64,000 nucleotides of DNA, from positions 4,541 to 68,540 of the IMG/VR virus record IMGVR_UViG_3300020220_000040; one strand, written 5' to 3'. The DNA comes from a virus. A program made the position numbers and the translations under genes. Below the pieces are notes generated by a model. It worked only from the letters and a program-made list of their open reading frames with translations. It was not told the origin of the DNA and searched no databases. Position 1 is the stretch's first letter; each line of letters begins with the position of its first letter. Of the stretch, positions 2,746 through 14,262 are shown one piece after another.

Positions 2746-3018
2746 TTGTCGAAGTCCGACATGATCCAGCGCATTGCTCGTCGTGCCTCTGAACGTCAGG
2801 GGTACGGCCAGATGCGGACGCTGCACCTCCGCGAAGAGGTGGCCAAGGCGTTGGCCAACCGGCCGGACGGTGCGAAGGCATCCACCCTGTCCGCTGTGCT
2901 GGCCGAAGCCATCAAGTTGATGGTGGGCGAGGGGGCTGATCCGCAAGCGGTGGAAGCCCTGGCCCGTCAAGAAGCCTCGGACTTCGTGAAGAAGGCTCTC
3001 CGCCTGAGGAAACGCTGA
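2746..3018 (+). CDS. Hypothetical protein
   Basis: Phage-like codon use; TGATG overlap with the next gene. Confidence 0.65.
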   Translation: MSKSDMIQRIARRASERQGYGQMRTLHLREEVAKALANRPDGAKASTLSAVLAEAIKLMVGEGADPQAVEALARQEASDFVKKALRLRKR

Positions 3019-3704
3019 TGCCCACCTCCGGTATCTATGCCGTCCGCAACAAGATCAACGGGAAGGTTTACGTGGGGAAGTCTGTAGACATCACCCACCG
3101 TTGGTGCAGCCACAAGGCTCGTCTGCGTCGAGGTGTGCATGTCAACACGCACTTGCAGCGGGCATGGAACCTGTACGGAGAGGGGGCTTTTGAATGTGAA
3201 GTCGTTCACCGGGAGAATGACAGAACCTTGCTGCCGCAACTAGAAGCCCAGTATGTGCTCGACTTCTCCGCCACAGACCCCGAGAAGGGCTACAACTTGA
3301 ATGTGGTAGACACCCACAGCTATCGCGCGAGCCCAGAGACACGGGCCAAGCAGAGTGCGGCACAGAAGGCTCGACATGCGGCCCACCCTCGCACTTGCAC
3401 GCCTGAGCAGCGAGCAAGGATGAGTGCGGCCCAGAAAGCTCGGGGGGCTACAGCTTCGGCGGAAACACGGGCCAAAATGAGTGCCGGCAGCAAGGGCAAG
3501 AAGAAGAGCCTCGAACATCGAGATGCTCTCATCGCCGCACATACGGGATGGGTTCCGAGTCAGGAGACTCGGGACAAGATTGGAGCAGCACATCGGGGAA
3601 GGAAAGCCAGTCCTGGAACCAGAGCCAAGATGTCGGCTACTCGCAAGGGCAAGAAGCGGGGCCCATACCGTAAGCACGCGCAAAGCGTAGAAGAAAACAA
3701 GTGA
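3018..3704 (+). mobile_element. GIY-YIG homing endonuclease with NUMOD3-like repeats
   Basis: GIYAVRN...VYVGKS..I..RW..H, E..Y, GYN; repeated S.ETRAKMS.A.KG units; lower GC than flanks. Confidence 0.9.
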
Positions 3705-3712
3705 GGTAGCCG

Positions 3713-4339
3713 GTGCCTTCTTTCCTCAAGACAAAGAAAGATGAAGATATGTGGGCCAAAGCCAAGGCGTTTGCTGAAGAGTCAGGGCACAAGGACGATT
3801 GGCCCTATATAACAGGCATTTGGAAACAAATGCAGGGCGAGGGTGCTTCGGCTCGGGTCGCGGATCGGTTCCTGGCCGCCTACGAACCCGGTCACCGCAA
3901 GGATGACTCTCGCGACCCCGACACCGATGGCTGGGTGAACGGCCTCGTCGAGGACTTCACCCCCACTGAAGGTGAGGGCTCCCAGGTGCCCTTCCCCCGC
4001 GACAACCAGGGCCACCCCCTCGCCCCGCCCGACCTCGGGATCGAGAACATCCCTGGCTACGAGTGGCACGACAAGTCCAAGGCGTTCCACTCCATCATGG
4101 AGAAGGAAGCCTCGAGCCGGACGGCCTCGATGGAGGACGAGCTTCGCTGGTGCGCCAACGAGATCGACCGAGCCAACGACATCCTTCGCGATGTCGTGCT
4201 GACCCTCGACGGCCGCCGTGATGGGGATGAGTCCATCTCGGACGTGTACGGGGCAGCGGCGGTTGTGACCCGCGAACTCTCCATGAACGTCTCGAAGAGC
4301 CTCGCGGAGGCCGAGAAGAAGCTCCGCCGGCTGGTCTAG
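3713..4339 (+). CDS. Hypothetical protein with RVADRFL motif
   Basis: ORF with GAGG RBS; ASARVADRFLAA; first ~40 codons are AT-richer. Confidence 0.7.
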   Translation: MPSFLKTKKDEDMWAKAKAFAEESGHKDDWPYITGIWKQMQGEGASARVADRFLAAYEPGHRKDDSRDPDTDGWVNGLVEDFTPTEGEGSQVPFPRDNQGHPLAPPDLGIENIPGYEWHDKSKAFHSIMEKEASSRTASMEDELRWCANEIDRANDILRDVVLTLDGRRDGDESISDVYGAAAVVTRELSMNVSKSLAEAEKKLRRLV

Positions 4340-5097
4340 CGCCTGAAGCGGTAGACCGCCGAGGGACGACCCACGCCTCCCCGCTTGCCGGGGGCAGTCT
4401 CGAGGATGCCGTCCTCGAGCATCCGGCGGAACTTCCGGTGGAAGGTCTTGGGGTCGTAGGCGGCTCCCTTGATCGCCTCGTACACCGACCGAAGCTCGGC
4501 CACGGTGAAGGTCTCGGGCACCAGGTCGAAGGCGATGGGGGAGTAGTCGATGCGACCCCGCAGCCGCTTGATGGCCGTGTCGAGAATCTGGTCGTGGTCG
4601 AAGGCGAGGGCCGCCCTACTCTCGAGCACCTCCTGGACGGACTGCCACTTCGCCTCGTCCGCATCGTCCCCAGCCGTCACGAGCGGGGCCAGCGTGGGCC
4701 TCACGAGAGCGAAGTAGGCGACCGAGATGACGCGCGTGCGGGGGTCACGCCCGGCCTTCCCGAACGTGTACAACTGCTCGATGTAGCACGAGCCGTGAGG
4801 GAGCCCCGTCTCCTCCTGCAGTTCGCGGTGGGCCGCTTCCTCCAGATCCTCCCCCTGTTGCTTCAGCCCGTCTCCGACATCGACGAAGCCGCCAGGGAAC
4901 GCCCAGCATCCCCTGTAGGGGTGTCCGCCCCGCTTGATGAGCAGCACCTTCAGATCCGTGTCGATGACCGTGAAGATCGCCAGGTCGACCGTGACCGACG
5001 GCTTCGGGTAGTCCTTCGCCGTGTAGGCGGCGAGGAACTCAGCCTCGGTCATGTCCGCCCCGTCCTTGGACGAGAGCTTTCCGCTGGGATCGGTCAC
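4336..5097 (-). CDS. nrtR: NrtR-type NUDIX + winged-HTH regulator of NAD metabolism
   Basis: KPSVTVDLAIF, WAFPGGFV, AHRELQEETGL, EQLYTFG..RDPR, LAFDH, C-terminal wHTH ending GRPSAVYRF. Confidence 0.9.
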   Translation of the reverse strand: MTDPSGKLSSKDGADMTEAEFLAAYTAKDYPKPSVTVDLAIFTVIDTDLKVLLIKRGGHPYRGCWAFPGGFVDVGDGLKQQGEDLEEAAHRELQEETGLPHGSCYIEQLYTFGKAGRDPRTRVISVAYFALVRPTLAPLVTAGDDADEAKWQSVQEVLESRAALAFDHDQILDTAIKRLRGRIDYSPIAFDLVPETFTVAELRSVYEAIKGAAYDPKTFHRKFRRMLEDGILETAPGKRGGVGRPSAVYRFRR

Positions 5098-6776
5098 TTC
5101 AACCTCATCGTGTACACCTTGTCGCCTCGCACGAAGGCAACCTTGCCCCCGTGCTTGATCAGGTGCATGTCGTTGCCGAGTTCCGTAGACTCCACTACCC
5201 GGATCTTGTCAGAACCGACCGAGGAGACTTCGAGCTTCTCGTCCTCGTTGAGGTGGACGCAGATCCCGTTGTCGAGGACCACGAAGTTGAGCCCGGCCGG
5301 CGTGATGTCCGACACCACCGGGCGCATCCGGTAGGTCTGGTAGTGCTCGTCGAAGATGAAGGTCAACCGGTCGTACTTGCCCTTCTTCGCACCGACGACC
5401 ATCAGGAGGCGGTTGTCGAACTTGGCCTCGACCACCTTGTAGTCGTCGAGTTCGGGCACCCGGACCTGGTGGGCAAGCCCGGCAGCAGGAAACACGGAGA
5501 CGAACATCGAGCCCAGGAGGTTCTGCACGAGCACCCCGTCATGCAGACGGGTGGCGTACTCCAAGATGTTGGCCGCCACCCGAGGAGACGCCACGACGTT
5601 GCTGCCCGAGTCGGTGAGCACCATCTCGATGATGCGATCTGCACTCTTGACGTAGATGCGGCCCCCGTAGGCCATCACCTGGTCGGCCTTCAGAGTGACG
5701 GGCACGTCCTTCTGTTGGGCCATGTTGTAGAGCCGGAGTTCGCCGTTCTCGAGCCACGCCACGACAGGCTGGTTGAGCTTGGGGCTGAAGCCCACTCCAC
5801 GCACCGGAGTGGGTCCCCGCACCTTGCGCCCGTTGAGGAACACGCCCTCGGGAGTGCCCGCCACCACAGCCCCGCCGTTCTCGACGAACCCGAGCACCTG
5901 TGCGGCGAAGGCCGCCAACTCGGAGATGTCGAGAGAGGCCCCGCTGAGGATGGTGCGGACCAACACCGCCGTCGCCACGAACGTGCCGGGGTCTGCAGGC
6001 GGAGGGAGACGCTTCCCGTCCTGGAGGACGGCCTTGAACCACGCCCGGTAGCCAGGCGGAATCACGTCCACGGGGTACACGACCTTGGGGACGGACACCG
6101 AGGGGTCGAAGATGGAGATGCACGCCTTCATCCGCTCCTCGAGCCCGTGGACGGAGGCGTGCTTGCCCTTGTAGGGGTGGATGCCGGTGAACATCTGGTA
6201 CGCGACACACGCGAACGAGAACCAGTCGGACAACTCGGTGAAGTCGTGCCCCTTCACGGTCCAGTCGCGGACGGAGGGCATGATGGCGGTCGCGGGGTAG
6301 CTGCGGGTCTGGTAGCTGTCCACGTCGATGCCGTAGACCTCGGAGAACGTCCGGTCCACGAGGAAGTTCATCTCGTTGAGGTCGACGATGAGCGTGCCCG
6401 ACTGGTGGATGCTCGCCACCATCGCCTGAAGGTTCCGCACGAGGGCGAGCATCTTCGGGTGGTCGAGCCCTTCCCGCTCCCGGAAGGCTCGGGTGAAGAC
6501 CTGGCAGAGCGGCATCGTGTTGCCCACGAACCGCATCGTGTAGCCGAGGGGCTGGTTCGTCTTGGGGTCGAGCAACACCCGTTCGGGCTTGATCACGTTC
6601 GGGTCGCGGATGGCGGCCAACTCCGTGATCTTCCCGACAGGGAGCATCCTCCCGGGGTCCGTGTAGACCTTGAACGCGGTGGTGCCCTTGGCGTAGATCG
6701 AGCCTTCGCCGCCACTTCCCACATAGTCACGTTGTGTCAGCGTGACCGGCCCTTGCCCTTGAATATGGACGATCAC
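5094..6776 (-). CDS. YegI-like Ser/Thr protein kinase (TerY-P triad)
   Basis: GSGGEGSIY, AFKVY, VDLNEMNFLV, IDVDS, DWFSFA, HPYKG. Confidence 0.85.
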   Translation of the reverse strand: MIVHIQGQGPVTLTQRDYVGSGGEGSIYAKGTTAFKVYTDPGRMLPVGKITELAAIRDPNVIKPERVLLDPKTNQPLGYTMRFVGNTMPLCQVFTRAFREREGLDHPKMLALVRNLQAMVASIHQSGTLIVDLNEMNFLVDRTFSEVYGIDVDSYQTRSYPATAIMPSVRDWTVKGHDFTELSDWFSFACVAYQMFTGIHPYKGKHASVHGLEERMKACISIFDPSVSVPKVVYPVDVIPPGYRAWFKAVLQDGKRLPPPADPGTFVATAVLVRTILSGASLDISELAAFAAQVLGFVENGGAVVAGTPEGVFLNGRKVRGPTPVRGVGFSPKLNQPVVAWLENGELRLYNMAQQKDVPVTLKADQVMAYGGRIYVKSADRIIEMVLTDSGSNVVASPRVAANILEYATRLHDGVLVQNLLGSMFVSVFPAAGLAHQVRVPELDDYKVVEAKFDNRLLMVVGAKKGKYDRLTFIFDEHYQTYRMRPVVSDITPAGLNFVVLDNGICVHLNEDEKLEVSSVGSDKIRVVESTELGNDMHLIKHGGKVAFVRGDKVYTMRLK

Positions 6777-7302
6777 GGTTTTGCTCCGCGTGTAGCTCTA
6801 CATGACAACGCACGCAGAGGAGGATGCACTTGTCGATCTCCGCCTGGAGGCGCTGCCACGCCCATCCGTACATGCGCGAGACCGTGAACTCCTTCACTGT
6901 CGGATCGGAGTGGTGGAATACGAGGGCATCGAGGCACCGGAAATAGCCGCACTCGACGCATTTCCCTCCTTTGTATGCGACTGCCCGTTCCTTCTGTCGT
7001 TTTGCTCGCAAAACCGATCGGCAGGCGTTGCAGACCCCCTTCCGATGACCGGCGCTGTTGTTGTGCTTCCCCAGGTAGGTGAACGCCTTGCCACAAGTCT
7101 GGCAGGTGCGCTCGGGGTTCATCGCCTCGGGATCGTGCAGCGGTTGGTGGTTCCTCGCCCCGAAAGGCGAACACTCCAGGCAGTAGATCCTGCTGCTCAG
7201 CATCCTCATCCGACCATCGACCATCACGCGATTCGGAAATGTGTTCCCACACTTCTTGCAGGTTCTCTTGCCGGGTTTGCGGGTTTTGAAGGTGTAGGCC
7301 AT
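6727..7302 (-). mobile_element. HNH homing endonuclease with CxxC zinc ribbons
   Basis: YKGGKCVECGY..C..ALVFHH.DP..KEF..C.LLC..CH..H; lower GC. Confidence 0.85.
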
Positions 7303-7342
7303 GCGCGCAAGCATAGCACAGCGGAGCAACGAAAGCTATGAC

Positions 7343-7414
7343 CTCGCCGCCCGAAGCGACGAACTCCCGCTGGGTGAGGCTGACCTCGCCCTGGCCTTGG
7401 ATGACGACCTTCAT
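7343..7414 (-). pseudogene. Remnant original 5' end of the kinase gene
   Basis: MKVVIQGQGEVSLTQREFVASGGE duplicates the kinase start MIVHIQGQGPVTLTQRDYVGSGGE. Confidence 0.85.
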
Positions 7415-7956
7415 GGCTGTGTCCGTTGGAAATACTGGGTCGGCACGGAGTCCACCAGCCAGACGTGGTTGTCGGTCTCGAAGAACTGGAACCCAGCTTC
7501 GGCCATCTCCTGCGCCCGCACCTCGAGGATCACGGGCTTTCCGTGGCGTCCCCCAACCTGGCGAGCCGTGTCGGTGGTGGCGGACAGGTGGACGTGGTGG
7601 CGGGACATCTTCTGCAGACCTTCCCTGAAGATGGCCTCGAGGAAGCGTTCAGCGGTGCCGTGGTACAGCACGGCGGGCGGGGCCTTCGGCTGGTAGCCAA
7701 GCTCCACCTCAACCGAGTGCCCCTGACGAGCACGGATTCGTGTCCCGTCCTCGTTGAACTCGAACCGCTTCTTGTTGTTGTCCGCGACGACCTGGTTGAG
7801 GTCGTCGCGGGACATCCCACGCCCCCGTTCGTCGAGTGCCTTCAGCAAGGCGTCGACCTCGACCCACCCTGCATCATCGAGGGTGAGCCCCACACTCCCG
7901 GGCTTGTGCCGCAGGATGAGGGAGAGGAACTTCGAGTGTTGGGTCACGTCAGCCAT
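7411..7956 (-). CDS. kptA: RNA 2'-phosphotransferase Tpt1/KptA
   Basis: SKFLSLILRH, KKRF, IRARQGHS, LYHGT, MSRHHVHLS, VWL. Confidence 0.95.
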   Translation of the reverse strand: MADVTQHSKFLSLILRHKPGSVGLTLDDAGWVEVDALLKALDERGRGMSRDDLNQVVADNNKKRFEFNEDGTRIRARQGHSVEVELGYQPKAPPAVLYHGTAERFLEAIFREGLQKMSRHHVHLSATTDTARQVGGRHGKPVILEVRAQEMAEAGFQFFETDNHVWLVDSVPTQYFQRTQP

Positions 7957-8746
7957 TGGAAACCTCTGCGCCGAGGTACATCCCGGCCACCGAGAAGTCG
8001 TCGTCGTGGTGCCAGCCCTTGGCCGCCACGTCCTTCAGGAACCGCTTCGCCCGACGGGTGAGGAACTCCCCCACGAACCCCTTGATGGCGAGCATCTCGT
8101 CGACCACGACGGGGAGGGGGACAGCCTCGGTCATGCCCGAGGTGCCCACGGGCTTGCGGAAGGAGAGGGCTCCGTCCGAGAACAGGAGCACGAGGTCGAA
8201 CTGGTCCGCGTTGAACCCGTAGGAGGTCACCGGGGAGCCCCAGCCCTCGGGCCCCAGGATGACCACTTCCTTCTCGGACACATCGTCCCCGTCGTAGGAG
8301 GTGACCACTTGCCGGGTGCCGAACTCGGTGGCGTAGCGGTCCCGTCGGGACCGGTCGAGGTCGTAGTTGGGGTAGAGCGGGGCCCCAGACGGGTAGCTCG
8401 TCGAGATGATGAGCCGTGTCCCATCCCGGCGGCGAGCGACCACCACGCCATCTCCGTGAACCGTCACCTGCACAGAGCGCGAGGTGGGGTCCCAACGAGC
8501 CGACAGCAAGGTGGCGTCCAGCGTCTCATCCGGGAGGGCCAACACCTCCAACAGGAGCCGAGCTTGGGCCACACCGTCGGCTGGGCCGTGGATCTGGGCC
8601 ATGTGGCAGATGAGGCGGGAGCCCACGTCCGTGTGGGGGGACGAGGAGCACCCGTCCGACAACAGGATCAACCCGGACTGGGCCAGCGCGTAGTCCTGGC
8701 AGACGTTGTGCTGCTTGCCCGTAGTGAAGAAGGCGTCGGTGTTCAT
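7949..8746 (-). CDS. PP2C-like phosphatase (YegK-like)
   Basis: GKQHNVCQDY, LSDGCSS, HGDG, FSDG, DDDFS; ATG 8746 overlaps the upstream stop. Confidence 0.85.
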   Translation of the reverse strand: MNTDAFFTTGKQHNVCQDYALAQSGLILLSDGCSSSPHTDVGSRLICHMAQIHGPADGVAQARLLLEVLALPDETLDATLLSARWDPTSRSVQVTVHGDGVVVARRRDGTRLIISTSYPSGAPLYPNYDLDRSRRDRYATEFGTRQVVTSYDGDDVSEKEVVILGPEGWGSPVTSYGFNADQFDLVLLFSDGALSFRKPVGTSGMTEAVPLPVVVDEMLAIKGFVGEFLTRRAKRFLKDVAAKGWHHDDDFSVAGMYLGAEVSNG

Positions 8747-9258
8747 GGGGCACTCGGCTTGGGGATTTGAGCTAGGGCGGGGCTCCCGAGTTGTTCGATG
8801 AGGAGCCGAGTGAGGTCCAACAGGTTCTCGGGCCACGGCTCTCCGAGCTTCCACCACACGGGCTCGGTGGTGCCCAGGGTGTACCGCTCGAAGTGGAGCA
8901 TCGTCATCGGACGCCCCTTGTCCTTCTGGAGGACGCGCGTGACCCAGCCGAGGAGTCGGCCCGCTTCCACGGTGTCTCCCACCTTCAGGTCAGCGGGAGC
9001 GATCTCCCCGTAGCAGAGGACGTGTTGTTCCCCCTGCACGAGGATGCAGTCGGTGTCGTTCCACCAGGGGGAGTCCGCCTTCGGTCCCGTGAAGGGGAGG
9101 ATGGCGACCACCACCCCCGGCTCGACGGCGAACACGGACGTTCCCTCGGGGCAGTAGAGGTCCACGCCCGTGTGGATGTCGTGCTTGCGCGCCACCCCAA
9201 ACGCTCCCGGAGATCCGGGAGCGGGGAACGTGCGGGCTTCCCCGGAGAGAGGCCACAT
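8743..9258 (-). CDS. M23-family peptidase
   Basis: HTGVDL, V.VGD.V.AG..LG, LHFE. Confidence 0.8.
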   Translation of the reverse strand: MWPLSGEARTFPAPGSPGAFGVARKHDIHTGVDLYCPEGTSVFAVEPGVVVAILPFTGPKADSPWWNDTDCILVQGEQHVLCYGEIAPADLKVGDTVEAGRLLGWVTRVLQKDKGRPMTMLHFERYTLGTTEPVWWKLGEPWPENLLDLTRLLIEQLGSPALAQIPKPSAP

Positions 9259-10470: not shown

Positions 10471-10484
10471 GGTAAAGCACCTAT
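10471..10484 (+). promoter_or_regulatory. Putative late promoter upstream of the endonuclease
   Basis: GGTAA-AGCA-CCTAT matches the shared motif. Confidence 0.5.
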
Positions 10485-10513
10485 ATCGCAACGGGTGTTA
10501 GCGACGGAGGTGT

Positions 10514-11473
10514 GTGGTGGGTGGTAGAAGTTGGACGTTGGGTGAAGTCGAGGGGTTCTTCCGAAAAGCCGGATGTGAACTCCTCTCGGTTGAGTACACG
10601 GGGTGCAACCAGAGGCTTCGCTACCGATGCGGATGTGGAGTGGAAGCCGAAACAGTGTTCCGAACCTTCAAACACAAGGTTGAAAAGGGTGTTCGTCGTG
10701 GTTGCGAGCATTGCGCGATCGAGCGGATGCTGGAGACCACGCGAGAAAGAAACGGCGGGCAACATCACTTTCAGACTGACGACTTCCTCCGTCGTCGGGG
10801 GGAGTCGAACCTTGCCCGGTTTGGTGTGGCAAACGTTCTTCAGAGTGCCGCGATCAAGCAAAAGCGGGTGGAGACGGTGCGTGCGCGCTACGGGGTTGAT
10901 TCGGTGAGTCAGGTGCCCGAGATACAGCAACGACAACGAGAGGGCTTCCGGGCGAAGTACGGTGTGGAACACTTCCTCCAACATCCAGAATCGGCTGCAA
11001 AGTTCCGTCGGACATTGGTGGAGCGATACGGGGCCCCGAGTCTTGCTTTTGTAAGTCGACGCTCCTCCCACGAAGCACAGAATTTCTTCGGGCTCCTGTT
11101 TGACAGGCTTCCCAAGGAACACCATGAGAAGTGCTACTTCTCCCCCCACACGCGGGAATTCAACGTCTGGAAGGACGGTGCCTACTACAAGTACGACTTC
11201 GTCCATTCCCGATTGAAGAAGGCCATTGAGTACAACGGATCCCGGTTCCACCCACGTCCTGAGCAAGACGCGGACGAGGTCGGGTGGTGCTTGTTCCGAC
11301 CCAACCGCACCGTCCGCGAGGCCCGCGAGTACGAGGAGCACAAGCTCGGTGCCCTCCGTGCTCGTGGGTTCGATGTCATGGTGGTATGGGATCATGAGGT
11401 GAAGCACGACAGGGACTCCGTCATCGCCCAGTGTCTCGCTTTTCTGCTTACGCCAGAACCTCATCGGAGTTGA
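10514..11473 (+). mobile_element. Free-standing endonuclease (Vsr/DUF559-like PD-(D/E)xK) with (K/R)YGV repeats
   Basis: RFGV/RYGV/KYGV/RYGA repeats; YDF...AIEYNG..FH; VVWDHE; antisense to the operon; lower GC. Confidence 0.75.
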
Positions 11474-12350
11474 CGACACGCATCCCCTTCGGCTGCATCT
11501 CCTTCAGGAAAGCATCTCCGAGGAAGTCGAATCCCCCGACGTTCGAGCAGCAGTCACGGATGAGCCACATTTTCTCGACGTACTTCGGGTTCGTGAATGC
11601 CGAAGCAATGTCCTTTCCCGTTGAGGCCACGCAGTGGGACAGCGCCTCGCCCGTGAACAGGATCACGTCGGCGTCCTCGAGGGTCTGGACGAGGCGGGTG
11701 TTGACCTGGGTCGCCGGGTCGGCCGGGTCCGGCACCTCGGCCATGACGCCGGAGAAGTGCTCGGTCCAGGGGTTGTTGCCCTTGACGACGTAGTTGACGC
11801 GGCCGATGAACTCACGCTCCCACCACTTCAGGGCATTCGCGAGTTCGGGGACGACGCCCCAACCCCAGGTGCCGACCACGCAGTGCTCGGTCCAGACGAT
11901 GTGGGGGTAGCGGCCACGGGCCGCGAGGGCCTGCAGGTAGCCGAACGAGCCCTTCCCGGTCGGGCCGCCCTGGTGGAGGAACGAGGGGATGGTGGTGACG
12001 TACTCCTCCTCGGTCGGGGACATGCCGAAGGCGTTCGGGCTCGAGCCGCCGGGGATGAACTTCACGACGCGGCGGCCGTCCGGGTGGATGCCGAGGCAGG
12101 TGAACGGGGCGGGCTCGGCACCGTCCGAGGCACGCTTCCACCAGCGGGGACGCTCGATGCCGACGGTCTGGTGGGAGTCCATCGTGACGTGGATGTCGTC
12201 GATCTTGCTGCCCAGACGGCGGACCATCTTGGCGAGGCGGTTCATGTCCTGGTCGGCACCCGGAACGACGAGGGCACCCTGGTTGCCGTGGCCGTCGTCC
12301 CCGATGCAGAAGTCGTTCTGGGGATCTACCACGAAAAGATGCAAGCGCAT
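11448..12350 (-). CDS. pncA: Nicotinamidase (isochorismatase family)
   Basis: VVDPQNDFC, TMDSH, WTEHCVVGTWG, KG.NPWTEHFS, GEALSHCV. Confidence 0.85.
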   Translation of the reverse strand: MRLHLFVVDPQNDFCIGDDGHGNQGALVVPGADQDMNRLAKMVRRLGSKIDDIHVTMDSHQTVGIERPRWWKRASDGAEPAPFTCLGIHPDGRRVVKFIPGGSSPNAFGMSPTEEEYVTTIPSFLHQGGPTGKGSFGYLQALAARGRYPHIVWTEHCVVGTWGWGVVPELANALKWWEREFIGRVNYVVKGNNPWTEHFSGVMAEVPDPADPATQVNTRLVQTLEDADVILFTGEALSHCVASTGKDIASAFTNPKYVEKMWLIRDCCSNVGGFDFLGDAFLKEMQPKGMRVVNSDEVLA

Positions 12351-12353
12351 GTG

Positions 12354-13205
12354 CTACTCCTTCGGAAGCAAGTGCTTCCAAGTGCGGTTGTGGACGATGG
12401 CGGCCACCGTCCCGGGGGCGATGTTGAAACGTTGGGCGAGCGACACCTGTGCTTCGCCTTCCTTGAAGGCGGCTCGGATCTGAAGGACATCTCCGTCTCT
12501 CAACTTGGAGAGATGGTGTCCCGATCCCCGCTTGCGCTTGGTGATCAGGCTGTCACGGTGAGGCACCGACTTCTGCGGAGGTCGAGACACGGCATCTTCC
12601 GGCGACCACCCGTTCTTGAGCCGGTATTCCAACGACTGGACAGTGATGCCGACCTCCTCCGCCCACTGTGTGAAGGGCTTGGTGACACCTTCGACGGTGA
12701 GGAACCTCGTGGAGGAGGTGTTGCGGGCCTGTTCTTTGGGTGTGGCCCACCGGACGTTGTGGGGCTCATAGTTCCCGTTGTTGTCGATGCGATCGAGCGA
12801 GTGTTTCGGGGAAGGTCGAGGCCCCATATCTGCGAGGAACTGATCGAAGCTCTTGTCCCACGCCGCACACACCTGAGCCCGATTCCCATAGAGGTAGAAG
12901 CTCTGGTTCCTCGGATCTGAGCACCTCCGACGCATATTCATCCAGATGCGATACTCGGGGCGGTAGCTGCGGGGGAGCGGGCTTTCCGTTGGGAGATGGG
13001 TTGAAGCACCCACTTCCGCCAAATCAACGGTGGGCACTACCTGAGCCCACGCCCCATACTTCTGTGAGAAGAATCCGATGGGACAGACTTCCACACCTTC
13101 CCGCACGAACGAGTCCGCGAGAACTACAGCATCTCGGACGTGCGCCGTTCGGGCTTTGCGGGATGGGGCGGAAGTCAGTTGCACGAAAGTCCCTCTTTTG
13201 AGCAT
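12354..13205 (-). mobile_element. HNH-type homing endonuclease
   Basis: EYRIW..MRRRC, YG, F..DMG.RP..HSLDRIDNNGNYEP.NVRWAT..EQARN; C-terminal HTH. Confidence 0.85.
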
Positions 13206-13236
13206 TGTGTGAAGCCTCCGTAGGGAGACTATCACA

Positions 13237-14262
13237 TCAGACCGGAAGCTCGTTGGTGAGGATGCCCGCTTTGACCAACGACGCGCGGTCACCGAGGGCC
13301 GGGCAGTTGGGGTTCATCTTGTGGCGGGTGGCCGCCTCGACCCGCCGGGCGTTCGTGAGGAGCGTGGTGACCACGTTCTCGGGGATGTTCGCGAACATGG
13401 ACAAGCGGGGGGCGACCTCGTTCAGGCTGAGGAAGGCCAGGGACTCGGAACTGTCCCCGAACAGGACTTCACCGGCCCTCCCGTCGGTCCCGTCGCAGAA
13501 GCGGTGCAGCCGCTCGATGAGGCCGACGTTCTTGTAGGCCCCCGTCTCCACGTCCACGTAGGAGTAGAACGGGATGCCACAGCCCTTGAGGCCGAGGTAG
13601 GACGCGATCTCCTCCTCGTCGTTGTGCTGGTCGCCGACGCCCCACAGGTCGGGGGACGGACGGGCGGTCAGGATGGAGCGGGGGACACCGAGGGCGATGC
13701 CCAACTGGAACACCTCGCCCTTCGACAGCATCGAGATCGGGTTGGAGTCGACCTCGCCGTCGCCGCCCTTCTGGTAGAAGCGGAGGACACGGTCCTCGTC
13801 CTCGTTGCCCGTGCCGTGGCGGATGCCCCCGCCCGAGAGGCGGTTGGCGGCCCGACCCCAGGGGGCACGGAGGGTGGAGCGGATGGAGCCGAGGATGGTC
13901 GGGTCCTTCTTGATCCGGGTGAAGATGTCCGCCTCGGAGTACCCGGCCCGCGTCATCGCGGTGAGCATGGTCTGGTACAGGGTGTCGAACAGGAACGTGC
14001 CGTCGAACTCGATGAGCTTGACCCCGAACGCCTGGGCACACTCCCGAGCCCGAGCGAGAGCGTCCGGGTTGGAGTTGATGCCGAGGAAGGCTGCGGTCAC
14101 GTTCTCGGGGCCGAGAGCACGGGAGAGGAGCCCGAGCATCACCGCCGAATCCACACCTCCGGAGAGGTCCAGTTCCGCCCGGGTCTGACCTGCCTTCTGG
14201 TGCATGTCGCGGATCGCCGCGACGCGGTTGTCGATGAGGGCCTGCGGGTTGAGGACGGGCAT
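13237..14262 (-). CDS. nadE: NH3-dependent NAD+ synthetase
   Basis: LSGGVDSAV, GTGN..E, FYQKGGDG, PI..LSK.EV, PSPDLW. Confidence 0.9.
   Translation of the reverse strand: MPVLNPQALIDNRVAAIRDMHQKAGQTRAELDLSGGVDSAVMLGLLSRALGPENVTAAFLGINSNPDALARARECAQAFGVKLIEFDGTFLFDTLYQTMLTAMTRAGYSEADIFTRIKKDPTILGSIRSTLRAPWGRAANRLSGGGIRHGTGNEDEDRVLRFYQKGGDGEVDSNPISMLSKGEVFQLGIALGVPRSILTARPSPDLWGVGDQHNDEEEIASYLGLKGCGIPFYSYVDVETGAYKNVGLIERLHRFCDGTDGRAGEVLFGDSSESLAFLSLNEVAPRLSMFANIPENVVTTLLTNARRVEAATRHKMNPNCPALGDRASLVKAGILTNELPV

What the first reader, a model, noticed from the sequence alone, without database searches (positions are those of the whole stretch)
6700..7414. Homing endonuclease that displaced the kinase start and supplies a recoded replacement N-terminus
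Seen: the old start MKVVIQGQGEVSLTQREFVASGGE (7414-7343, GC3-rich, overlapping the kptA stop) is followed by an HNH gene and then a second start MIVHIQGQGPVTLTQRDYVGSGGEG (6776) written in AT-richer codons (cat att caa ggg caa ... aca caa cgt gac tat gtg gga agt). Inference: the element inserted inside the conserved Gly-rich ATP loop and restores the gene without splicing by carrying a diverged, cleavage-resistant copy of the displaced end.
Basis: partly seen in the sequence, partly recalled or inferred. Interest (0 to 1): 0.85.

Follow-up and report, generated by a model that had tools for sequence, protein, structure and literature searches.

The report
Homing endonuclease replaced kinase gene start
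A selfish DNA-cutting-enzyme gene sits 24 codons into a giant phage's protein-kinase gene and keeps that gene working by bringing a foreign, differently spelled copy of those 24 codons with its own start, leaving the original start as a dead stub.

Summary
On the minus strand the order is: kptA; a 24-codon native kinase start (7414-7343); a 40-nt spacer; an intact HNH endonuclease gene (7302-6727); a second 24-codon start (GTG 6776, GGAG 7 nt upstream); then the kinase body. The copies share 17/24 residues and 44/72 bases, and 17 of the 28 differences fall at third positions. GC3 is 0.92 for the old copy, 0.54 for the new copy and 0.91 for the body.

The break lies at E24|G25. That is the invariant Gly-rich hairpin of a confidently modelled protein-kinase fold. 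A 74%-identical relative (L186) has the uninterrupted gene, and its start resembles the stub. A 93%-identical relative (L110) has the same layout, with the HNH gene under purifying selection (dN/dS 0.06). No intron signal was found.

Relics of the same HNH family lie just upstream of the kinase start in two distant phages. A LAGLIDADG gene leaves the same footprint in this kinase (L155). A related HNH gene does so in an RtcB gene (L073).

My best reading is intron-less homing with a co-converted foreign 5' end and a one-sided, illegitimate left join. The closest known case is the fungal mitochondrial mORF hybrid genes, which are C-terminal. Cleavage and splicing remain untested. This scan has noted the same architecture before on other phage DNA.

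The parts
7949..8857 (-). PP2C-type phosphatase gene, the usual upstream partner of the kinase
   Evidence: Pfam PP2C_2 E 4.9e-6. A PP2C homologue lies upstream on the same strand in 91 of 105 related loci.
7411..7956 (-). kptA/Tpt1 RNA 2'-phosphotransferase gene. Its stop overlaps the old kinase start (ATGA).
   Evidence: Pfam PTS_2-RNA E 6.9e-51. Among the 105 related loci it is present only in L186. It is absent from L110, where PP2C abuts the stub.
7343..7414 (-). Native 24-codon kinase start, now a dead stub (old24)
   Evidence: profile E 1.8e-11. GC3 is 0.92, like the kinase body. It shares 19/24 residues with insertion-free L186.
7303..7342 (-). 40-nt spacer, the left end of the inserted block. 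It has no Shine-Dalgarno-like GGAG before the HNH ATG.
   Evidence: Read. GC is 0.575. It differs at 6 of 40 bases from L110. The RNA fold z-score is -1.35, not significant.
6727..7302 (-). Intact free-standing HNH homing-endonuclease gene: two N-terminal CxxC zinc ribbons plus an HNH core. Its last 50 nt overlap the new kinase start.
   Evidence: PHROG 2255 E 3.5e-39. All 20 invariant family columns are present. The model has pLDDT 84.2, and its residues 99-179 align with HNH nucleases at Z 4.9-3.9. dN/dS against L110 is 0.06. GC is 0.59 against 0.64 for the window. Pfam HNH reaches only E 0.13.
6705..6776 (-). Foreign replacement 5' end of the kinase (new24), with a GTG start at 6776 and GGAG at 6787-6784
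   Evidence: GC3 is 0.54, the lowest of 537 sliding 24-codon windows of the kinase. Nearest starts are L120 19/24 and L118 17/24. It differs at 2 of 72 bases from L110.
5094..6704 (-). Resident body of the kinase gene (codons 25-560): kinase domain to about residue 268, then an unassigned C-terminal half
   Evidence: Foldseek gives at least 500 PDB kinase matches at E <= 0.001, with GSK3 and CDK2 on top at TM about 0.6. D132, N137 and D151 are invariant. GC3 is 0.91.
6773..7414 (-). 213-codon frame that runs from the dead start through the HNH gene in another frame. Its TGA overlaps the new GTG. Probably a by-product.
   Evidence: also open in L110. Only 7 of 5000 naive synonymous shuffles keep it open. 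In 13 control genes the same frame holds 39 stops against 76.9 expected, so the corrected chance is about 0.09.

Best explanation
A free-standing HNH homing-endonuclease gene invaded an ancestor of this huge phage.

**Home and target (inferred).** The gene's home is the position immediately upstream of, and overlapping, the start of the phage's Ser/Thr-kinase-like gene. Its target lies about 72 nt inside that gene, in the codons of the invariant Gly-rich ATP-binding hairpin.

**Repair (inferred).** After a cut at or next to codon 24/25, repair copied the donor leftwards from the break. It copied the donor's own first 24 kinase codons, with their GTG start and GGAG, and then the endonuclease gene. 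Only the downstream side had homology. The upstream side was sealed illegitimately to the unresected break end, so the resident 24 codons survived as a dead stub.

**Result (shown at the DNA level).** The kinase is made from the new start without intron or intein splicing. Neither junction carries the whole original target. The stub has lost the downstream half. The new copy differs at 9 of the 21 bases before the junction. That would protect the genome from its own enzyme.

**Further spread (inferred).** Once formed, the block can spread by ordinary two-sided homing or recombination.

**What is shown and what is not.** Shown: anatomy, foreign spelling, an insertion-free relative, selection on the HNH gene, and parallels elsewhere. 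Inferred: the cut site, the order of repair steps, and resistance to cleavage.
For: - **Anatomy and duplication:**
- **Break site:** it lies in the invariant G22-G23-E24-G25 hairpin of a kinase fold.
- **Sharp change of spelling at codon 24/25:** GC3 is 0.54 before and 0.91 after. The HNH gene is at 0.73-0.77.
- **Which copy is native:** L186 (74% identical, uninterrupted) matches the stub 19/24 and the new copy 13/24. Of 100 homologue starts, 73 are closer to the stub, 21 closer to the new copy, and 6 tie.
- **Shared layout:** L110 has the same layout with no indel over 2323 nt. HNH dN is 0.012 and dS 0.21.
- **Block divergence:** dS of the block (0.12-0.27) is lower than that of both neighbours, PP2C at 0.79 and Nudix at 0.41.
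- **Same family at the same place:** relics of this HNH family lie directly upstream of, and run into, the kinase start in L002 and L153, with no stub.
- **A second endonuclease family:** an 80-100% related LAGLIDADG gene sits upstream of the kinase in 4 loci. One of them, L155, has a 17-codon old-start stub.
- **A second target gene:** a related HNH gene is flanked by a 47-codon RtcB stub and a full RtcB gene in L073.
- **Same window:** a GIY-YIG gene with a recoded 44-codon 5' tract is missing from L110.
- **No intron signal:** no Rfam match at E <= 10, and no significant RNA structure.
Against: - No cleavage, expression or RNA data exist. The one RNA run covers only pieces of a relative's kinase body.
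- Pfam HNH is below threshold (E 0.13). Foldseek found nothing at E <= 0.001. The VIA-align Z values are under 5.
- Only 2 of 81 sequences holding this HNH family (the window and L073) show a flanking gene-end duplication. The stub is therefore not a regular feature of the family.
- No donor with an intact HNH gene next to a new24-like start was found. L118 and L120 have no HNH gene upstream.
- The spacer (6/40) and the stub (8/72) differ more from L110 than the HNH gene does (26/526). That does not fit a simple picture of a freshly shared cassette.
- The vWA gene has an equally low dS (0.16), so the low divergence of the block is not unique.
- No contig that skips the insert (an empty-site allele) was seen in the 4 runs laid.
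- In L155 the stub is more GC3-rich (0.47) than the resident gene (0.21), which the model does not explain.
Confidence: 0.8

Rival explanations
1. Self-contained cassette homing, as in mitochondrial mORFs. The unit [spacer + HNH + new24] inserts exactly at its own cleavage site, using homology within the kinase gene on both sides. Every invasion would then leave the recipient's own 24 codons as a stub. The stub-less relics in other phages would be later deletions.
For: - The same junction lies in two different upstream contexts: kptA in the window and PP2C in L110.
- HNH plus new24 differ at 28/598 bases, against 127/1608 for the kinase body.
- A soil-metagenome contig (X14) is 97% identical across the HNH/new24/body junction, while its other pieces are 87-95% identical.
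- The HNH 3' end overlaps the kinase start in three very distant phages.
- Mitochondrial mORFs work this way (PMC3630166).
Against: - The stub's dS against L110 (0.24) equals that of the kinase body (0.27). So the stub travelled with the block and was not supplied by two different recipients.
- The spacer is the most diverged part (6/40).
- Stub-less arrangements are the majority. For the HNH gene, L002 and L153 lack a stub against one lineage with it. For the LAGLIDADG gene, 3 of 4 loci lack it.
- A 72-nt left arm is short.
Confidence: 0.25
2. An HNH-encoding group I or group II intron. The stub is a short 5' exon that is spliced to codon 25, and the second copy is incidental intron sequence.
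For: - Splicing 7343 to 6704 would give an in-frame, complete kinase.
- Short unannotated N-terminal exons next to endonuclease genes do exist in phages, such as the ICP1 terminase (PMC10448857, passage read).
Against: - No intron family matched in Rfam at E <= 10 over 6300-7800.
- Only 40 nt on the left, and nothing on the right, is free of coding sequence.
- Folds of both flanks are no better than shuffles (z -1.35 and +0.30).
- The second copy keeps 17/24 residues, with differences concentrated at third positions, and has its own GGAG and GTG. An intron has no reason to conserve these.
Confidence: 0.04
3. Local tandem duplication of the kinase start in this genome, followed by divergence. 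The HNH gene would have landed between the copies later.
For: The two copies lie in direct orientation 638 nt apart.
Against: - GC3 is 0.92 against 0.54 within one genome, with a sharp boundary.
- The new copy groups with starts of another, lower-GC kinase lineage (L120 19/24), and the stub groups with the nearest relative.
- The same footprint arises with other endonucleases and other genes.
Confidence: 0.03
4. Add-on to the main reading. The 213-codon frame from the dead start is kept open by selection, so that ribosomes coupled to kptA end on the TGA overlapping the new GTG and re-initiate on the kinase.
For: - The frame is open in the window and in L110 despite 31 amino-acid differences.
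- Its stop overlaps the GTG.
- Only 7 of 5000 synonymous shuffles keep it open.
Against: - The same frame is depleted of stops in 13 control genes (39 observed against 76.9 expected). With that correction the chance of no stops is about 0.09.
- The new start has its own GGAG.
- L073 and L155 have no such read-through.
Confidence: 0.12

Closest known systems
Mobile endonuclease ORFs (mORFs) of fungal mitochondria that make hybrid genes: Allomyces macrogynus atp6; Glomus sp. atp6, atp9, cox2, nad3 (PMC3630166, passages read)
   Same: An endonuclease ORF arrives together with a foreign, diverged copy of the end of the gene it cuts. The foreign end is the one in use. The native end stays beside it as an unused remnant that matches close relatives better than the inserted copy does. 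Identity between the copies is similar: 64-81% there, 61% here.
   Different: Those cases replace the C-terminal (3') end, often with the ORF in phase with the host gene, use LAGLIDADG or GIY-YIG enzymes, and lie in organelle genomes. Here the 5' end is replaced, so the insert must also bring a start codon and a ribosome-binding site. The enzyme is HNH and the host is a huge phage.
Free-standing homing endonucleases of T4-type phages with intron-less homing and co-conversion of flanking markers: SegF, SegG, MobE (PMC2988022, passages; PMC2790892 and PMC2330249, abstracts in listings)
   Same: The nuclease gene lies outside any intron or intein, next to the gene it cuts. The cut lies at a distance from the insertion point. 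The stretch between them is converted to the donor's resistant spelling.
   Different: In those cases the converted tract replaces the recipient's sequence and no duplicate remains. The word stem 'duplicat' does not occur in that review.
[quoted passage not shown]
   Same: Homology on one side of the break is enough. The other junction forms at microhomology. This is offered as the way mobile elements reach new sites.
   Different: That was an engineered system with an intron. Whether it yields a duplicated gene end like this one I could not check.
Endonuclease insertions that split phage genes: mobE in Aeh1 nrdA, mobA in T4 gene 39/60, seg in gene 43 of phage 25 (PMC2988022, passages)
   Same: An endonuclease gene sits inside a functionally critical, conserved part of a coding region without intron or intein.
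   Different: There the two halves are both translated and reassemble. Here the upstream piece is redundant, because the insert brings a full replacement.

Membership tests
Free-standing homing endonuclease gene (intron-less homing) | Encodes a nuclease of a homing-endonuclease family (HNH, beta-beta-alpha-Me) | tested here: met
   PHROG 2255 E 3.5e-39. All 20 invariant Cys/His/Lys columns of 26 family members are present. Model residues 99-179 align with Cap5, Gme, GVE2, Cas9 and IscB HNH domains and with T4 EndoVII at Z 4.9-3.9. These are weak scores. Pfam HNH gives E 0.13, and Foldseek gives nothing at E <= 0.001.
Free-standing homing endonuclease gene (intron-less homing) | Present or absent at the same site among related genomes | tested here: met
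   Present in the window and L110. Absent from L186 (74% identical kinase) and from the other related loci. Decayed relics lie at the same place in L002 and L153.
Free-standing homing endonuclease gene (intron-less homing) | Not embedded in a self-splicing intron or an intein | tested here: met
   No Rfam family matched at E <= 10. The three reading frames differ and stops intervene. The flanks show no significant structure. Splicing itself was not assayed.
Free-standing homing endonuclease gene (intron-less homing) | Tract of donor-type sequence between the nuclease gene and the target site | tested here: met
   The new24 copy has GC3 0.54 against 0.91, and its closest matches are L120 and L118.
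Free-standing homing endonuclease gene (intron-less homing) | Cuts the endonuclease-less allele, spares its own, and is over-inherited in mixed infection | not testable with these tools
   The phage is uncultured, and the protein was not expressed.
Mitochondrial mORF hybrid genes | Endonuclease ORF plus a foreign gene end in use, with the native end left as a remnant that matches relatives better | tested here: met
   Use of the new start is inferred from the GGAG, the GTG and the open frame. It was not measured.
Mitochondrial mORF hybrid genes | Replaces the 3' (C-terminal) end of an organelle gene | tested here: not met
   Here the 5' end of a phage gene is replaced. It therefore works like an mORF hybrid but is not a member.
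Group I intron with an endonuclease ORF | Conserved ribozyme core flanking or enclosing the ORF | tested here: not met
   One search found no match. Only 40 nt are non-coding.
Intein | In-frame insertion translated with the host protein | tested here: not met
   The HNH frame differs from both kinase frames. The stub frame ends in TGA at 6775-6773.
Eukaryote-like Ser/Thr protein kinase (the target gene) | Bilobal kinase fold with Gly-rich hairpin, beta-3 Lys, catalytic-loop Asp/Asn and metal-binding Asp | tested here: met
   The model has pLDDT 89.4. At least 500 PDB kinases match at E <= 0.001. G22, G23, G25, K36, D132, N137 and D151 are invariant in 30 sequences. Pfam Pkinase is below its cut-off (21.4 against 31.7 bits). 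Activity was not tested.

The most novel reading that the evidence does not exclude
The HNH gene, the 24 recoded codons and their GGAG and GTG form a self-contained mobile cassette. This would be a third way, besides introns and inteins, for a homing endonuclease to live inside a phage coding sequence. It would home into naive kinase alleles using only homology within the target gene, and so would be independent of the highly variable upstream neighbourhood. The read-through frame from the dead start to the TGA on the new GTG would be kept to re-couple kinase translation to the operon.
Probability: 0.2. Interest if true: 0.7.

Novelty: new variant of a known kind. Interest (0 to 1): 0.55.

Why it matters
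**A route into coding sequence.** The locus shows how a homing endonuclease can settle inside the most conserved codons of an essential-looking phage gene without an intron or an intein. The target gene's start is replaced rather than spliced.

**Stages found around one gene family.** These include:
- an intact endonuclease gene under selection;
- an insertion-free relative;
- decayed relics;
- a second endonuclease family with the same footprint.

This makes the life cycle of such elements, and the role of one-sided break repair in creating them, directly testable.

**Consequences for annotation.** Such stubs cause wrong gene starts and spurious small ORFs. Chimeric gene ends can mislead phylogenies.

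**Consequences for phage evolution.** Endonuclease genes appear to move short foreign coding tracts between phages of very different base composition.

Tried and rejected
- **Near-identity DNA search of phage records.** It found nothing.
- **HNH protein alone in viral contigs.** It found no relative. The family alignment then found at least 496 relatives, of which the 80 best were kept.
- **Flank-duplication screen of all 81 HNH-holding sequences**. Besides the window and L073, it gave only tRNA-like or low-complexity matches (L081, L063, L090, L098, L077), which I set aside.
- **Sequencing runs**. 24 runs were listed and 4 were laid, chosen for partial word shares plus the only RNA run.
  - No joint skips the insert.
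  - The RNA run covers only kinase-body pieces at 89-95% identity.
  - It therefore says nothing about splicing or expression of this locus.
  - All data were contigs, which drop rare variants.
- **Selection on the 213-codon read-through frame.** It was suggested by a naive shuffle but not upheld by control genes.
- **Promoter and terminator scan of 6500-8100.** No promoter was found. The one terminator-like site was no more than shuffles give.
- **RNA structure of both flanks.** Not significant.
- **Donor search.** The lineages whose starts resemble new24 (L118, L120, L124, L114) have no HNH gene upstream.
- **Literature.** Seven full-text searches found no description of a phage endonuclease gene flanked by an old and a replacement 5' gene end. 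This holds only for the held library. Supplements were not opened.
- **Papers seen.**
  - Passages: PMC6279837, PMC2988022, PMC3630166, PMC12724721, PMC8351571, PMC10448857.
  - All other papers: listings or abstract starts only.
  - Paquin et al. 1994, Parker et al. 1999 and Friedrich et al. 2007 are known to me only through those passages and reference lists.
- **Not used.** The search of protein representatives, the genome-contig scan, complex prediction and the protein-atlas search.
- **Counting note.** Several loci are the same contig held in two collections: for example L007, L126 and LR745208; L012 and L173; L021 and L149; L015 and L181. Counts of loci therefore overstate the number of distinct phages.
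Full report
**What the window is.** The window is 64 kb of a 68.5-kb IMG/VR virus record. CheckV rates the record 13% complete, which points to a genome of several hundred kb. The kinase's relatives lie almost only on huge-phage contigs of 200-640 kb.

**Anatomy** (minus strand).
- PP2C phosphatase: 8857-7949.
- kptA/Tpt1: 7956-7411 (Pfam E 6.9e-51).
- Native kinase start: 24 kinase-like codons, 7414-7343. Their ATG overlaps the kptA TGA.
- Spacer: 40 nt.
- HNH gene: 7302-6727.
- Kinase: a GTG at 6776, preceded at 7 nt by GGAG, opens a 560-aa protein that ends at 5094.
- Nudix/NrtR gene: follows the kinase.

The three frames (stub, HNH, kinase) all differ. No sigma-70-like promoter or convincing terminator lies in 6500-8100. 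The genes therefore probably share the operon's transcript.

**The duplication is real.**
- The two 24-codon stretches share 17/24 residues and 44/72 bases.
- Five codons are identical, 11 are synonymous and 8 are not. Differences fall 4, 7 and 17 at codon positions 1, 2 and 3. This is the pattern of two homologous coding sequences, not of decay.
- A profile of the first 27 residues of 102 homologues hits the stub at E 1.8e-11 and the working start at E 5.2e-12.
- The layout is not an assembly artefact.

**Which copy is native.**
- The stub has GC3 0.92, like the kinase body (0.91) and kptA (0.83).
- The working copy has GC3 0.54, the minimum among 537 sliding windows of the gene. The change is abrupt at codon 24/25.
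- The HNH gene has GC 0.59 and GC3 0.73-0.77, also below the window's genes (mean GC3 0.81).
- The nearest insertion-free relative is L186 (74% identical; order PP2C, kptA, a 72-aa ORF, kinase). It matches the stub at 19/24 and the working copy at 13/24.
- The working copy is closest to the starts of L120 (19/24) and L118 (17/24). These are contigs of 44-48% GC whose kinases are only 47-48% identical overall.
- Among 100 homologue starts, 73 are closer to the stub, 21 are closer to the working copy, and 6 tie.

So the stub is resident, and the working 5' end came from elsewhere together with the HNH gene.

**Where the break is.**
- In an alignment of 30 homologues, G22, G23, G25, K36, D132, N137 and D151 are invariant.
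- The AlphaFold model of residues 1-290 has pLDDT 89.4 and pTM 0.85. Strands 18-22, 25-30 and 33-38 form the start of the N-lobe.
- The model matches at least 500 solved kinases at E <= 0.001.
- The break at E24|G25 is thus the tip of the Gly-rich hairpin. Its role in binding ATP follows from general knowledge of protein kinases and was not tested.
- In L110 the stub keeps two more bases of codon 25 than in the window. The junction is therefore known to within about 2 nt.

**The insert is an endonuclease gene under selection.**
- PHROG 2255 gives E 3.5e-39.
- 46 relatives at 34-58% identity exist in the large protein collection. All 20 invariant columns are kept.
- The model has pLDDT 84.2, and its residues 99-179 align with HNH nucleases. 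These structural matches are weak: Z 4.9-3.9, Foldseek best E 0.14, Pfam HNH E 0.13.
- Against L110 the gene shows 21 synonymous and 7 non-synonymous codon changes, with dN 0.012 and dS 0.21.

**The relative L110.**
- This metagenome contig matches window 7416-5094 without any indel at 92.7% identity. It has the same stub, spacer, HNH gene and working start.
- It lacks kptA, so PP2C abuts the stub.
- Mismatches are: stub 8/72, spacer 6/40, HNH 26/526, new copy 2/72, body 127/1608.
- dS is 0.24, 0.21, 0.12 and 0.27 for the stub, HNH, new copy and body. For the neighbouring genes it is 0.79 (PP2C), 0.49 (M23) and 0.41 (Nudix), but 0.16 for vWA.
- The block from stub to kinase end is therefore younger than both its immediate neighbours. 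The stub belongs to the block.
- This fits lateral movement of the whole block between related phages. It does not show two independent invasions.

**Parallels.**
1. *HNH relics.* Relics of the same family lie directly upstream of the kinase start and run into it, with no stub. They are in L002 (LR756511; 51% identical over residues 129-171) and L153 (64% over 148-172).
2. *A LAGLIDADG gene.* It is 80-100% identical among L155, L183, L181 and L015, and lies on the opposite strand just upstream of the kinase start. Only L155 has an old-start stub: 17 codons, profile E 4.8e-5.
3. *RtcB in L073.* A member of this HNH family (3318-3821) is flanked by a 47-codon RtcB start (3138-3299) and a full RtcB gene (3823-5025; Pfam E 1.2e-109). 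The break falls within a PD-x-H motif.
4. *A GIY-YIG gene in this window.* It lies at 3018-3704 and is followed by a gene whose first 44 codons are GC3-poor (0.42-0.58, then 0.75-1.0). L110 lacks the nuclease gene and carries a different, native-looking 48-codon start. Homology with L110 resumes inside the first four codons of the GIY-YIG ORF.

In the second-copy screen only 3 of 106 kinase-bearing sequences have a significant second start: the window, L110 and L155. Only 2 of 81 HNH-bearing sequences have duplicated flanks. Stubs are therefore the exception.

**Mechanism.** The stub-less majority shows the ordinary state: a free-standing endonuclease gene between the upstream gene and the kinase.
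- The neighbourhood upstream of the kinase varies greatly among these phages. A recipient therefore often has no left homology.
- One-sided repair with an illegitimate left join is documented for T4 (PMC2988022). It yields exactly the observed product.
- The product then behaves like a mitochondrial mORF hybrid (PMC3630166).
- The cut site, the order of steps and the resistance of the re-spelled copy are inferences. That copy differs at 9 of the 21 bases before the junction.

**Results that do not support, or that limit, this reading.**
- There are no RNA or protein data.
- The structural support for HNH is weak.
- No donor was found.
- The spacer and the stub are more diverged than the HNH gene.
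- No empty-site allele was seen in the runs laid.
- The L155 stub has an odd composition.
- The open 213-codon frame looked selected (7 of 5000 shuffles). It is unremarkable once the genome-wide depletion of stops in that frame is allowed for (39 observed against 76.9 expected in 13 genes).

**Earlier notes of this scan.**
- Notes on this genome pointed me to the GIY-YIG case and to the read-through frame. I tested both.
- Notes on other genomes report the same architecture in other phages and name the same closest known case. I did not test those notes and do not count them as evidence.

**Verdict.** This is a new variant of a known kind: a 5'-end version, in a phage and with an HNH enzyme, of the endonuclease-borne gene-end replacement known from fungal mitochondria. 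I found no published description for phages in the seven searches listed under Tried and rejected.

Noticed in passing
window 3018-3840 (+): A GIY-YIG endonuclease gene (3018-3704) is followed by a gene (GTG 3713) whose first 44 codons are GC3-poor. The relative L110 lacks the nuclease gene and has a different 48-codon start at L110 6732-6858. Homology with L110 runs into the first four codons of the GIY-YIG ORF, so the nuclease appears to use the resident gene's start codon.
   Followed up: yes
window 6773-7414 (-): A 213-codon frame runs from the dead start through the HNH gene, and its TGA overlaps the new GTG. It is also open in L110. After correction with control genes the chance is about 0.09.
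   Followed up: yes
window 7411-7956 (-); L110 2980-2992; L186 399-1136: kptA is an exact gene-sized presence/absence difference between PP2C and the kinase. It is present in the window and L186, and absent from L110 and the other 103 related loci. In L186 the kptA frame stays open about 70 codons beyond the end of the match.
   Followed up: partly
L155 1817-3001: A 17-codon old kinase start (2043-2093) and a LAGLIDADG gene on the opposite strand (2083-2940) precede a full kinase gene. The upstream zinc-ribbon ORF lacks the last ~45 residues that L015 has.
   Followed up: yes
L073 3138-5025: A 47-codon RtcB start stub, an HNH gene of the same family, then a full RtcB gene. GC3 is 0.28 for the stub, 0.14 for the HNH gene, 0.13 for the new start and 0.22 for the rest.
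   Followed up: yes
L124 2714-3001: Nine codons identical to the L120-type kinase start open an unrelated 96-aa ORF that ends at the true kinase start. This may be another start capture by an inserted gene that is not a recognisable endonuclease. The profile hit is only E 1.3.
   Followed up: partly
window 10481-11503 and 12354-13313: Two more low-GC (0.58-0.60) genes flank the pncA-like gene (11448-12353). The pncA GC3 profile dips at its first 12 codons (0.67) and near its end (0.58-0.75). I did not identify these genes.
   Followed up: partly
window 5094-5900 (-): The C-terminal ~290 residues of the kinase protein have no Pfam match. The whole 560-aa architecture, paired with an upstream PP2C gene, is conserved in 91 of 105 related loci from huge-phage contigs.
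   Followed up: no
window 6566-7107, run X14: A contig from a soil metagenome is 97% identical across the HNH/new-start/kinase junction. The same run's pieces of the kinase body, Nudix and kptA/PP2C regions are 87-95% identical. One of its contigs leaves the window's sequence at 7407, inside the stub.
   Followed up: partly
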